A stretch of DNA of 63,470 nt from an uncultured Eubacteriales bacterium (lineage in GTDB: Bacteria; Bacillota; Clostridia; Christensenellales; CAG-138). Positions 24,274 to 25,791 of this stretch are shown in pieces. The stretch spans positions 1-63,470 of the forward strand of contig UQOG01000003.1 of assembly GCA_900542615.1 (NCBI GenBank), read 5' to 3'. Position 1 is the stretch's first letter. Every line of letters begins with the position of its first letter. Under the pieces are notes generated by a model. The model worked only from the letters and a program-made list of their open reading frames with translations. It did no database searches and was not told the origin of the DNA. The position numbers were made by a program, and so were the translations under genes.

Positions 24274-25791
24274 TTATTGGCCAATGAGGGCCCGCATCTT
24301 TTGGTATAGGCCGTGATATTTGAGCATCGCTTCTTTGGAATAGGTGTGGCCAGCGTCCTCCTTCCCTATGGCCTTGGCCATGCCCGCCAGCTGCTTTTCC
24401 GTCAGATCTGCGGCGCCGCCTTGGGTATGGGCGGTATTCATTTTGTTGAACATGGCGGTAGCGCCCTGGGAGGTTCGGACAATGGCGCTGGAAGCCGCCG
24501 GCCCTAGCCCCGACTGATTGGCCATCTGCAAAGCGTTTTTGCCGAGGGTCGGGCTGGTTAAATACAAATTCAAGTTGTTGAGCAGGGTGTTGGTGAGCAA
24601 ATGATCGTCCGCAAAGAAGTCGTCGGCCCCCTGTCCCTGGGTGGCGCTGCGAAGCGCCTGGGCGTTGCCCAGAAGGTACCGCTGCACCTCCGGGTCATCC
24701 ATGAAGATCATCATTTCATCCATGGAGTCGTTGAGGAAGTCCGCTGCGCTCTGCTTACCGATGCGGCTTCTTTCCCGCTCCTCCCTGGTCATTTGGGACA
24801 TGGAACTGAACAGGTTTTTCTTGTCGTCGGAGTTGTAGCGGGCGCCGAGACGTTGGGTCATATTGGCTTGCAGGTTCTGCATGGCGCCGCCGCTGCGGAT
24901 CCGGTCTGAGCTGCTTACAAAGGCAGGATAGCGCGCATTGTTCCGGTTGTTCTCGATTAGGGCGTTGTTAAAGCGCTCCATTTGGGTAGCTCCCGTAGGC
25001 TGCGAGTTGGTGTATGCCGTCCGCATCTGGGTGGCCAGGTTTGCAAAATCCGCCGTCTCCTGGGGGGAGTTGGCGCCGGGGTTAAATTGATAATTCGGCG
25101 CGGCGACCGGCGTTTGCGGCGGGGAGGAAAACAGGTTTTTGATTCCGCCCCAGGCCGCCTTGGCCCCGCTGGCGATGCCCCGCCCAAGGGCTTTGGTGCC
25201 ATTCCAAGCCTTGGACGCCACGCTGGCCAGGCCCGCGCCCATGCCCAGGGCGCCCCGCTTGATAAGGCTGCCTGCCTTCTGGAGGAATTTCGGCATCATC
25301 TGCACCCCGCCCATGGGGGCGCTCACCGTGGACATGCCGCTTTCCACCGCCCCCTGCTGGGCCGTATGCACCAATTCGTGGGCGGCTACCGCAGGATCGA
25401 ACCCGCCCTCGCCAAAGTATACGTCACGGCCTGTGGCATAAGCCCGGGCGCCCATGCTCTCCGCCCTGCCCACAGCGTCTGCGCCCATATGGAAGCGCAC
25501 ATCCGAAAAGTCCGCCCCCATCTTTTCCCCCAGCTCCGCCTTCACCTCCGCCGGGGTACGGGCCGTGATCCCCGCCGCCACGGCGTCGGCCTCCGCCTCT
25601 GCCGCCGGATTCTGTAGGCTTTGGAACCGGGCCATCCGGGCCTGCATCTGGGCCTCCAGAGCATCCCCCAGCCCCGGCTGCTCCAGGCCGTAAGCCCCGC
25701 GCACCGCCTGGGTATTCGAAGCGGGTGCGTCCATGTTTTCGTAGCTGCCCGCCGGGATCTCCCGGGGCTTCTTCACCAATTGATACGCCAT
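24274..25791 (-). CDS. DUF4157 (eCIS-associated zincin-like) domain protein with uncharacterised ~350-aa C-terminal region; candidate CIS effector
   Basis: FSDVRFHMGADAVGRAESMGARAYATGRDVYFGEGGFDPAVAAHELVHTAQQ is the DUF4157 signature, including HExxH at about residues 138-142. AGGAGGA SD present. It is the last gene of the CIS operon. Confidence 0.85.
   Translation of the reverse strand: MAYQLVKKPREIPAGSYENMDAPASNTQAVRGAYGLEQPGLGDALEAQMQARMARFQSLQNPAAEAEADAVAAGITARTPAEVKAELGEKMGADFSDVRFHMGADAVGRAESMGARAYATGRDVYFGEGGFDPAVAAHELVHTAQQGAVESGMSTVSAPMGGVQMMPKFLQKAGSLIKRGALGMGAGLASVASKAWNGTKALGRGIASGAKAAWGGIKNLFSSPPQTPVAAPNYQFNPGANSPQETADFANLATQMRTAYTNSQPTGATQMERFNNALIENNRNNARYPAFVSSSDRIRSGGAMQNLQANMTQRLGARYNSDDKKNLFSSMSQMTREERERSRIGKQSAADFLNDSMDEMMIFMDDPEVQRYLLGNAQALRSATQGQGADDFFADDHLLTNTLLNNLNLYLTSPTLGKNALQMANQSGLGPAASSAIVRTSQGATAMFNKMNTAHTQGGAADLTEKQLAGMAKAIGKEDAGHTYSKEAMLKYHGLYQKMRALIGQ

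What the first reader, a model, noticed from the sequence alone, without database searches (positions are those of the whole stretch)
24274..25791. Terminal DUF4157 (HExxH) protein with a ~350-aa unassigned C-terminal region: candidate novel CIS payload
The last gene of the operon carries the DUF4157 signature (FSDVRFH...ARAYATGRDVYFGEG...AAHELVHTAQQ). Comparative surveys report this domain as a marker of eCIS-associated toxins, where it acts as an N-terminal loading or adaptor module fused to variable toxic domains. Residues from about 150 to 505 have a Gly/Ala-rich linker followed by a helical, Asn/Gln/Met-rich region with no motif I can recognise. No adjacent immunity-like small ORF is seen; the next gene has its own promoter. 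That would fit a non-self, possibly eukaryotic or distant-bacterial, target.
Basis: partly seen in the sequence, partly recalled or inferred. Interest (0 to 1): 0.65.

Follow-up and report, generated by a model that had tools for sequence, protein, structure and literature searches.

The report
Injection-system cargo protein with new C-terminal domain
This gene most likely encodes a cargo protein loaded into a phage-tail-like injection machine of a gut Clostridia bacterium; its front half is a well-known delivery module, and its back half is a rare, confidently folded all-helical domain with no known relative or function.

Summary
The ORF is real: 24274-25791, minus strand, 505 aa, with a strong ribosome-binding site. 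It lies 83 nt after the AAA+ ATPase of a complete eCIS operon.

It has five parts:
- a disordered 41-aa leader;
- a DUF4157/PF13699 HExxH domain (E 8.6e-18), under very strong purifying selection;
- a clade-specific junction motif, VQMMPK;
- a cationic Gly/Ala-rich linker (aa 169-232);
- a 13-helix C-terminal domain (CTD, aa ~240-505; AlphaFold pLDDT ~90).

The CTD matches nothing credible in Pfam, NCBIfam, PHROGs, PADLOC, PDB sequences, or Foldseek against PDB and BFVD. An exhaustive profile search of 1.84 billion protein representatives found only 9 members. Every full-length member carries DUF4157.

In a ~90%-identical relative, the DNA from just after VQMMPK to 30 nt past the stop codon is replaced by an unrelated CTD. 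Other relatives carry two tandem effectors with the same N-terminal module, one ending in the toxin domain Ntox11. One relative has a gene with the same leader but no DUF4157.

The gene is therefore a polymorphic eCIS effector, a known kind, carrying a new CTD family. Its biochemical activity and target remain unknown. No immunity gene is present.

The parts
24274..25791 (-). Whole effector gene, 505 aa plus stop codon
   Evidence: ORF list. Full-length homologs at 42-98% identity start with the same MAYQ residues.
25797..25802 (-). Shine-Dalgarno sequence AGGAGG, 5 nt before the ATG
   Evidence: Read directly from the sequence.
25669..25791 (-). Leader, aa 1-41: disordered, system-specific, and the likely loading signal
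   Evidence: AF2 pLDDT is below 50 for aa 1-42. The leader is shared at 92-98% identity by tandem paralogs in L001 and L004. In L005 it is shared by a gene that lacks DUF4157. Its role in loading is inferred from AlgoCIS and PVC experiments (bioRxiv 10.64898/2026.05.27.728243).
25306..25611 (-). DUF4157 / PVC-metallopeptidase fold, aa ~61-162 (Pfam match aa 80-147)
   Evidence: PF13699 E 8.6e-18. AF2 pLDDT is 80-97. dN/dS against L003 is 0.03 with 93% amino-acid identity.
25366..25380 (-). HELVH zinc-binding motif (H138, E139, H142)
   Evidence: Invariant in all aligned homologs.
25288..25305 (-). Junction motif VQMMPK, aa 163-168: the border between the constant and variable parts
   Evidence: Q[ML][ML]P[KR] is present in 114 of 126 relatives, and their sequences diverge immediately after it. 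A role as a cleavage site is inference only.
25096..25287 (-). Cationic Gly/Ala-rich amphipathic linker, aa 169-232
   Evidence: The linker region (computed over aa 166-232) has 9 Lys/Arg and no Asp/Glu. The protein's highest helical hydrophobic moments lie here and across the junction just before it. pLDDT is 29-41. Its length varies between homologs.
24277..25095 (-). C-terminal domain, aa 233-505: a new all-alpha family of 13 helices
   Evidence: AF2 gives pLDDT 90.3 and pTM 0.88. There is no credible match in Pfam, NCBIfam, PDB sequences or by Foldseek. Only 9 members exist among 1.84e9 representatives. dN/dS is 0.26.
24562..24651 (-). Most conserved CTD block, aa 381-410: R-x-A-T-x-G-x-G-x-x-D-F-F-x-D-D-H-x-L-x-x-T-L-L-N-N-x-N-L-Y
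   Evidence: Invariant columns in alignments A1 and A3. In the most distant member the DDH triplet reads NDE.
24245..25266 (-). Exchangeable cassette: aa 176 to the stop codon plus 30 nt
   Evidence: L002 aligns to window 26451-25267 at 90.9% and to 24244-18591 at 88.9%, with no nucleotide similarity in between.
25875..28091 (-). Upstream AAA+ ATPase (WHD + AAA; Pvc15/Afp15/Alg15-type), the presumed loader
   Evidence: PF22977 E 2.2e-22 and PF00004 E 4e-31.

Best explanation
The gene encodes a cargo (effector) protein of the extracellular contractile injection system encoded directly upstream.

Shown here:
- the five-part architecture: 41-aa disordered leader, DUF4157 zincin-like domain, VQMMPK junction, cationic Gly/Ala linker, 270-aa all-alpha CTD;
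- the position after the AAA+ ATPase;
- the constant N-terminal module and the exchangeable CTD cassette.

Inferred by analogy with PVC and AlgoCIS:
- the leader is recognised by the AAA+ ATPase, which unfolds the protein and threads it into the inner-tube lumen;
- sheath contraction expels the protein into a target cell, where it refolds.

Inferred from Zhang et al. 2012 and from the junction motif:
- the strongly constrained DUF4157 peptidase processes the protein, probably at or near VQMMPK, and frees the linker and CTD.

The CTD is the active part. The cluster of invariant polar residues (R381, T384, D391, D396, N405, N406, Y410, N449) suggests a defined catalytic or ligand-binding site that acts on an intracellular target. 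The activity and the target organism are unknown.
For: - A complete eCIS operon lies upstream: sheath, two gp19 tubes, CIS_tube, VgrG-like spike, baseplate J, Pvc16_N cap and AAA+ ATPase.
- PF13699 matches at E 8.6e-18.
- AF2 shows aa 1-42 disordered, DUF4157 confident and the CTD confident.
- The cassette is swapped relative to a ~90%-identical relative.
- Tandem paralogs share the N-terminal module and differ in CTD. One of them carries Ntox11.
- L005 has a gene with the same leader but no DUF4157.
- The junction motif is present in 114 of 126 relatives.
- dN/dS is 0.03 for DUF4157 and 0.26 for the CTD.
- The CTD family is found only with DUF4157 N-terminal modules, apart from fragments.
- Literature: Cgo1 and Cgo2, with the same layout, fill the AlgoCIS tube lumen (PMC8894135). 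The NTD is required for loading and DUF4157 is dispensable (bioRxiv 10.64898/2026.05.27.728243). DUF4157 is a marker of eCIS toxins (PMC8213781, PMC11297309). It was proposed to be a releasing autopeptidase (PMC3482391).
Against: - There is no experimental evidence for expression, loading, cleavage or toxicity of this protein.
- The CTD has no similarity to any known toxin.
- No immunity gene is present.
- In AlgoCIS, DUF4157 was needed neither for loading nor for Cgo1 toxicity, so its processing role is unproven.
- The DDH triplet in the conserved block is not kept in the most distant family member.
- One distant family member (L006) is not next to eCIS genes within 10 kb.
Confidence: 0.75

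Rival explanations
1. It is a non-toxic accessory or structural factor of the particle. DUF4157 is a 'core' eCIS domain, so the protein could serve as a lumen filler or plug, an assembly chaperone, or a protease that matures other components. The CTD would then be a scaffold rather than an effector.
For: - DUF4157 is present in nearly all eCIS lineages (PMC8213781) and is under very strong constraint here (dN/dS 0.03).
- This window has only one such gene.
- The CTD is a helical bundle with weak repeat-like Foldseek hits to TPR, 14-3-3 and designed repeat proteins.
- A role as a chaperone acting in trans was proposed in PMC11297309.
Against: - A structural part would not be swapped for unrelated CTDs between near-identical strains.
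- It would not sit beside an Ntox11 paralog with the same N-terminal module.
- The number of such genes varies from one to two per locus.
- Cgo1 and Cgo2 are dispensable for AlgoCIS assembly (PMC8894135).
Confidence: 0.1
2. It is a membrane-active or pore-forming effector. The cationic amphipathic linker and the helical CTD would insert into, or permeabilise, the target membrane.
For: - The linker has 9 Lys/Arg, no acidic residues and the protein's highest amphipathic moments.
- Short cationic amphipathic helices follow the junction motif in many paralogs.
- The top Foldseek hits, though insignificant, include the alpha-pore-forming toxins AhlB, AhlC, SmhB and MakA.
Against: - Those hits have E of 0.2 or worse, probability 0.08 or less and TM-score about 0.12.
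- No segment reaches transmembrane-grade hydrophobicity. The highest 19-residue Kyte-Doolittle mean is 0.91, and it lies in the linker.
- The linker belongs to the shared module, not to this CTD, and is almost absent in P0007.
Confidence: 0.08
3. The DUF4157 metallopeptidase is itself the toxic activity, and the CTD targets or regulates it.
For: - The HExxH motif is intact and the domain is extremely conserved.
- Zhang et al. 2012 noted that the domain sometimes occupies the toxin position (PMC3482391).
Against: - Cgo1 toxicity was independent of the HExxH motif (PMC8894135).
- The domain occupies the constant N-terminal position here, and the CTD is the variable part.
- A cargo candidate with the same leader lacks the domain altogether.
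Confidence: 0.05

Closest known systems
AlgoCIS cargo proteins Cgo1 (498 aa) and Cgo2 of Algoriphagus machipongonensis (PMC8894135; bioRxiv 10.64898/2026.05.27.728243)
   Same: Both have a disordered NTD, a central DUF4157 and a variable ordered CTD. Both are encoded in the eCIS cluster together with an AAA+ ATPase. The size is similar to Cgo1. Paralogs share the NTD and DUF4157 but differ in CTD.
   Different: The host is a member of the Clostridia, not the Bacteroidota. The leader sequence is unrelated. The CTD is a different family: Cgo1 was not recovered by the exhaustive CTD profile search, and its CTD is described as a predicted metalloprotease. The VQMMPK junction and the cationic linker are specific to this clade. 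Loading has not been shown here.
PVC-metallopeptidase polymorphic toxins (Zhang et al. 2012, PMC3482391), also called eCIS-associated toxins or EATs (Geller 2021, PMC8213781; PMC11297309)
   Same: A constant N-terminal HExxH module is joined to a recombining, variable C-terminal domain. The gene sits at the 3' end of the eCIS operon beside the PVC-type AAA+ ATPase. An immunity gene is often absent.
   Different: The CTD is not one of the catalogued toxin domains. It has no Pfam match and no structural neighbour. About 980 predicted EATs likewise have only DUF4157 annotated (PMC11297309), so an unassigned CTD is common in this class.
The Ntox11-bearing paralog P0014, encoded in tandem with family member P0007 in locus L001
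   Same: The first ~170 aa (leader, DUF4157 and VQMMPK) are nearly identical. Both occupy the same locus position after the AAA+ ATPase.
   Different: The P0014 CTD is PF15521 Ntox11, described as alpha/beta followed by a beta-rich C-terminus (PMC3482391). The CTD here is all-alpha and unrelated.
Streptomyces davawensis Tme, a DUF4157 effector related to tape-measure proteins (PMC11126660)
   Same: It has an N-terminal DUF4157 and is associated with a CIS.
   Different: Tme is longer than 2,000 aa. It has predicted transmembrane helices, a tape-measure-like region and a C-terminal nuclease, and it lies inside the structural gene block. None of these features is present here.

Membership tests
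DUF4157 / eCIS_core / PVC-metallopeptidase (PF13699) | Pfam HMM match above the gathering score | tested here: met
   64.7 bits against a cutoff of 22, E 8.6e-18, aa 80-147.
DUF4157 / eCIS_core / PVC-metallopeptidase (PF13699) | HExxH zinc-binding motif | tested here: met
   H138-E-L-V-H142 is invariant across homologs.
DUF4157 / eCIS_core / PVC-metallopeptidase (PF13699) | Peptidase or autoprocessing activity | not testable with these tools
   This needs biochemistry. Only the strong purifying selection (dN/dS 0.03) speaks for a retained function.
eCIS cargo / eCIS-associated toxin (EAT) | Encoded in or next to an eCIS operon, typically at the 3' end near the AAA+ ATPase | tested here: met
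   The gene starts 83 nt downstream of the AAA+ gene in a complete eCIS operon.
eCIS cargo / eCIS-associated toxin (EAT) | Disordered, system-specific N-terminal leader shared by cargos encoded in the same locus | tested here: met
   pLDDT is below 50 for aa 1-42. The leader is shared by paralogs in L001 and L004 and by a DUF4157-less gene in L005.
eCIS cargo / eCIS-associated toxin (EAT) | Physical presence in the tube lumen of purified particles | not testable with these tools
   This needs proteomics or cryo-ET.
eCIS cargo / eCIS-associated toxin (EAT) | Toxicity or another effect on target cells | not testable with these tools
   This needs expression and particle assays.
Polymorphic toxin system (in the sense of Zhang et al. 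2012) | Constant N-terminal module with a recombining, variable C-terminal domain | tested here: met
   The cassette is replaced relative to L002. Sequences diverge after VQMMPK in 114 of 126 relatives. The alternative CTD family is unrelated by hhalign, probability 0.3%.
Polymorphic toxin system (in the sense of Zhang et al. 2012) | Adjacent cognate immunity gene | tested here: not met
   Only a 159-nt gap separates the gene from the next one, with no credible ORF. L002, L003 and L007 show the same. The literature notes that this feature is often absent in PVC-type systems (PMC3482391).
Alpha-pore-forming toxins (ClyA / Hbl / AhlB family) | Structural similarity to the family fold, with a hydrophobic membrane-inserting segment | tested here: not met
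   Foldseek gives E of 0.2 or worse and TM-score about 0.12. No segment of transmembrane-grade hydrophobicity exists.
Tme-type effectors related to tape-measure proteins | Very long ORF with transmembrane helices and a tape-measure-like region, in the tape-measure gene position | tested here: not met
   The protein is 505 aa, has no transmembrane helices, lies after the ATPase and has no significant tape-measure match in BFVD.

The most novel reading that the evidence does not exclude
The all-alpha CTD (aa ~240-505) is a genuinely new protein fold that carries a new effector activity. It would be delivered by gut Clostridia eCIS particles into host or eukaryotic cells, or into competing bacteria. 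The clade-specific VQMMPK motif would be the long-sought autoprocessing site of the DUF4157 peptidase, which would finally give that domain a testable substrate.
Probability: 0.3. Interest if true: 0.6.

Novelty: new member of a known kind. Interest (0 to 1): 0.4.

Why it matters
eCIS particles are being engineered as protein-delivery devices, and their natural cargos are a source of new toxins and enzymes. This locus offers three things:
- a compact, cleanly delimited cargo from an under-studied gut Clostridia eCIS lineage;
- natural 'experiments' that map the functional borders of the leader, the DUF4157 domain and the CTD, namely the cassette swap, the tandem paralogs and the leader-only gene;
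- a confidently folded domain of about 270 aa with no structural neighbour.

If the VQMMPK junction proves to be the DUF4157 cleavage site, it would settle what this 'core' eCIS domain does, a question open since 2012.

The general architecture is already well described, however. Roughly a thousand predicted eCIS toxins have equally unassigned C-termini, so the find is incremental until an activity is shown.

Tried and rejected
- **Family libraries on the CTD.** Pfam returned nothing at E up to 10. NCBIfam returned only a phosphonatase hit at 13 bits against a cutoff of 220. PHROGs returned a 'head maturation protease' hit at 17.8 bits, seen only for the excised CTD. PADLOC returned GajB at 14-16 bits. 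All were rejected as compositional noise.
- **PDB sequences.** Searches with the single sequence and with the profile gave a best hit of GlnRS over a 41-residue stretch at E 0.07. Rejected.
- **Foldseek.** The pLDDT-90 CTD model and the full-length model were searched against PDB, and the CTD model against BFVD. Nothing reached E 0.001 or better. The RasGAP/IQGAP hits had probability 0.35 or less and TM-score 0.32 or less. The alpha-pore-forming-toxin hits had TM-score about 0.12. None was accepted.
- **A terpene-synthase-like DDxxD reading of 'DFFxDDH'.** Rejected on my own reasoning. The Asp spacing differs, the motif is not conserved in P0126, and no terpene-synthase fold appeared among the hits.
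- **Homology between this CTD and the alternative CTD of P0010, P0013 and P0015.** hhalign gave probability 0.3%. Rejected.
- **Other fusion partners for the CTD** (Rhs, LXG, T6SS and similar). None was found in two word-indexed searches and one exhaustive search.
- **Stand-alone CTD proteins.** P0121, a 253-aa apparent stand-alone CTD, is the downstream half of a gene split in the Pro/Ala linker. It is not treated as an orphan cassette.
- **A second leader or DUF4157 gene in the window.** None was found.

Full report
**Observation**

The ORF at 24274-25791 on the minus strand (505 aa) is real. It has an AGGAGG ribosome-binding site 5 nt before the ATG. It starts 83 nt after the stop codon of a 738-aa WHD+AAA ATPase gene.

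That ATPase closes a complete contractile-injection operon running on the minus strand from about 53373. The operon encodes a sheath, two gp19-type tubes, a CIS_tube protein, a VgrG-like spike, baseplate J, a MORN-repeat protein and a Pvc16_N cap.

Pfam places PF13699 at aa 80-147 with E 8.6e-18. PF13699 is DUF4157, now named 'eCIS core domain'. The HELVH motif is at aa 138-142. The linker (aa 171-232) is 21% Ala, 18% Gly and 10% Lys. The C-terminal part is 9% Asn, 8% Gln and 6% Met.

**Anatomy**

A full-length AlphaFold2 model, built from a 23-sequence alignment, divides the protein as follows:

- aa 1-42: pLDDT below 50;
- aa ~61-160: a confident DUF4157 fold, pLDDT 80-97;
- aa 166-231: low confidence, pLDDT 29-41;
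- aa ~240-505: a confident all-helical domain.

Modelled alone from only 9 sequences, the C-terminal domain (CTD) reaches mean pLDDT 90.3 and pTM 0.88, with 13 helices.

The linker region (aa 166-232) has 9 Lys/Arg and no acidic residue. It holds the protein's highest amphipathic moments but no segment of transmembrane-grade hydrophobicity.

**How unusual the CTD is**

No credible match was found in any library:

- Pfam at E up to 10, NCBIfam, PHROGs and PADLOC;
- PDB sequences, by single sequence or by profile;
- Foldseek against 350,542 PDB chains, where the best hit had E 0.2 and TM-scores were 0.32 or less;
- Foldseek against BFVD.

An exhaustive HMMER profile search of 1.84 billion cluster representatives found only 9 proteins. 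A further profile search added none. A scan of one genome from each of 185,579 species found the CTD in three. Two are uncultured Clostridia MAGs and the third is Candidatus Anaerotruncus excrementipullorum.

Every full-length family member carries an N-terminal DUF4157 module. The two most distant members, P0123 and P0126, have divergent versions of it. The 253-aa protein P0121 is the downstream half of a gene split in the Pro/Ala linker.

The family has a strongly conserved block at aa 381-410, R-x-A-T-x-G-x-G-x-x-D-F-F-x-D-D-H-x-L-x-x-T-L-L-N-N-x-N-L-Y. It also has further invariant polar residues. In the most distant member the DDH triplet reads NDE.

The exact protein recurs in public assemblies. 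Its 90%-identity cluster has 87 members, some of them seen on dozens of contigs.

**Evidence that it is an exchangeable effector**

1. *Cassette swap.* Locus L002 comes from a close relative. It aligns to window 26451-25267 at 90.9% and to 24244-18591 at 88.9%, with no nucleotide similarity in between. The gap covers the DNA for aa 176 to the stop codon plus 30 nt. L002 encodes a different CTD there (P0010). That CTD family is unrelated to this one by hhalign, with probability 0.3%.

2. *Tandem paralogs.* Locus L001 has two effectors in tandem after the ATPase. Their first ~170 aa are nearly identical. One ends in PF15521 Ntox11, a predicted toxin domain of polymorphic toxin systems. The other ends in the present CTD family. 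Locus L004 also has two such genes.

3. *Junction motif.* Of the 126 relatives retrieved, 114 carry HExxHxxQQ followed by Q[ML][ML]P[KR]. Their sequences diverge immediately after 'VQMMPK'. That motif therefore marks the border between the constant and variable parts.

4. *Leader-only gene.* In locus L005 the effector is followed by a gene whose first 41 residues repeat the effector's leader almost exactly. It then continues without any DUF4157. The leader is thus an autonomous module, and it coincides with the AF2-disordered segment.

5. *Selection.* Against the ortholog in L003, dN/dS is 0.03 for DUF4157 (93% amino-acid identity). It is 0.26 for the CTD, 0.32 for the leader and 0.23 for the linker. 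All parts are constrained, and DUF4157 is constrained extremely.

**Mechanism**

The architecture and gene position are shown here. The remaining steps are inferred from characterised systems.

- In AlgoCIS, the cargos Cgo1 and Cgo2 have the same NTD-DUF4157-CTD layout. They fill the inner-tube lumen and leave it on contraction (PMC8894135).
- In AlgoCIS, the disordered NTD is required for loading, the AAA+ protein mediates loading, and DUF4157 is dispensable (bioRxiv 10.64898/2026.05.27.728243).
- Zhang et al. 2012 proposed that this 'PVC-metallopeptidase' is an autoproteolytic releasing peptidase. They also noted that PVC-type toxins often lack immunity genes (PMC3482391).

I therefore propose four steps: loading through the leader and the ATPase, expulsion on contraction, DUF4157-dependent processing near VQMMPK (speculative), and action of the CTD through its conserved polar site. 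The CTD's biochemical activity and its target organism remain unknown.

**Rivals**

- A structural or chaperone role is disfavoured by the cassette exchange and by the variable copy number.
- A pore-forming role is disfavoured by the lack of hydrophobic segments and by the non-significant fold hits.
- DUF4157 acting as the toxin itself is disfavoured by its constant N-terminal position and by the Cgo1 data.

- The gene is the last recognisable eCIS gene, not the end of the conserved block. Three genes follow it on the same strand in the window and in L001, L002, L003, L005 and L007. They are a 961-aa MFS fusion, a 199-aa weakly GNAT-like protein, and a HAMP-SpoIIE-HATPase_c_2 protein. Similarity between the window and L002 ends right after that trio.
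- The 'own promoter' of the next gene is not confirmed.
- The loading determinant is more likely the leader than DUF4157.

**Novelty**

The kind of protein is well known: a DUF4157 polymorphic eCIS effector. Unassigned CTDs are common in it. About 980 of 1,130 predicted DUF4157 toxins have no other annotated domain (PMC11297309).

What is new is this particular CTD family. It is very rare, confidently folded and has no structural neighbour. The clean natural mapping of module borders in this Clostridia lineage is also new. I rate it a new member of a known kind, of moderate interest.

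Noticed in passing
window 18587-24114 (-): Three co-directional genes follow the effector: a 961-aa fusion of an N-terminal SGL/propeller-like region with an MFS transporter, a 199-aa weakly GNAT-like protein, and a 663-aa HAMP + SpoIIE (PP2C) + HATPase_c_2 protein. They follow it in the window and in all five related loci that extend past the effector gene. Nucleotide similarity to the close relative L002 ends exactly after them, at window position 18591. 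They may belong to the eCIS island, perhaps as a regulatory module or membrane adaptor.
   Followed up: partly
L005 8298-9287 (+): A gene in Ca. Anaerotruncus excrementipullorum starts with the same 41-aa leader as the neighbouring DUF4157 effector but has no DUF4157 domain and no Pfam match. It is a candidate second cargo and shows that the leader is a transferable module.
   Followed up: partly
window 25288-25305 (-) and relatives: A clade-specific 'VQMMPK' motif lies about 20 residues after HExxH and is present in 114 of 126 relatives. In many of them it is followed at once by a short cationic amphipathic helix, for example KIGGLFKRGSK or FFKNLFKSK, whatever the CTD. A similar peptide, KKKRGFFSRLFGRK, ends the distant member P0123.
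   Followed up: partly
window 47005-49476, 41033-43960, 36050-38924, 32783-35299 (-): Several large genes inside the eCIS operon have no Pfam match: 823 aa, 975 aa, 589 aa, 372 aa, and 838 aa with only a weak HAMP hit. An 836-aa MORN-repeat protein at 29839-32349 sits where a tail-fibre or receptor-binding gene might be expected.
   Followed up: no
window 56086-56793 and 57039-57755 (-): Two tandem LytTR-type response regulators lie upstream of the sheath gene. They are possible regulators of the operon.
   Followed up: no
window 9147-11150 (-): Two adjacent genes of the phage-integrase (tyrosine recombinase) family lie about 8 kb beyond the end of the conserved eCIS block. A TetR regulator and two ABC-transporter genes (13055-17329) lie in between.
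   Followed up: no
L008 2499-4127 (+): In one metagenomic contig the orthologous effector is split into a 282-aa DUF4157 ORF and a 253-aa CTD ORF. The break falls in the Pro/Ala-repeat linker. The cause could be slippage, an assembly error or a real pseudogene.
   Followed up: no
L006 10001-11707 (+): The most divergent member of the CTD family (P0126/P0143) is an orphan gene. It sits next to GerE-type regulators and a 1,915-aa SLH surface protein, with no eCIS structural genes within 10 kb.
   Followed up: no
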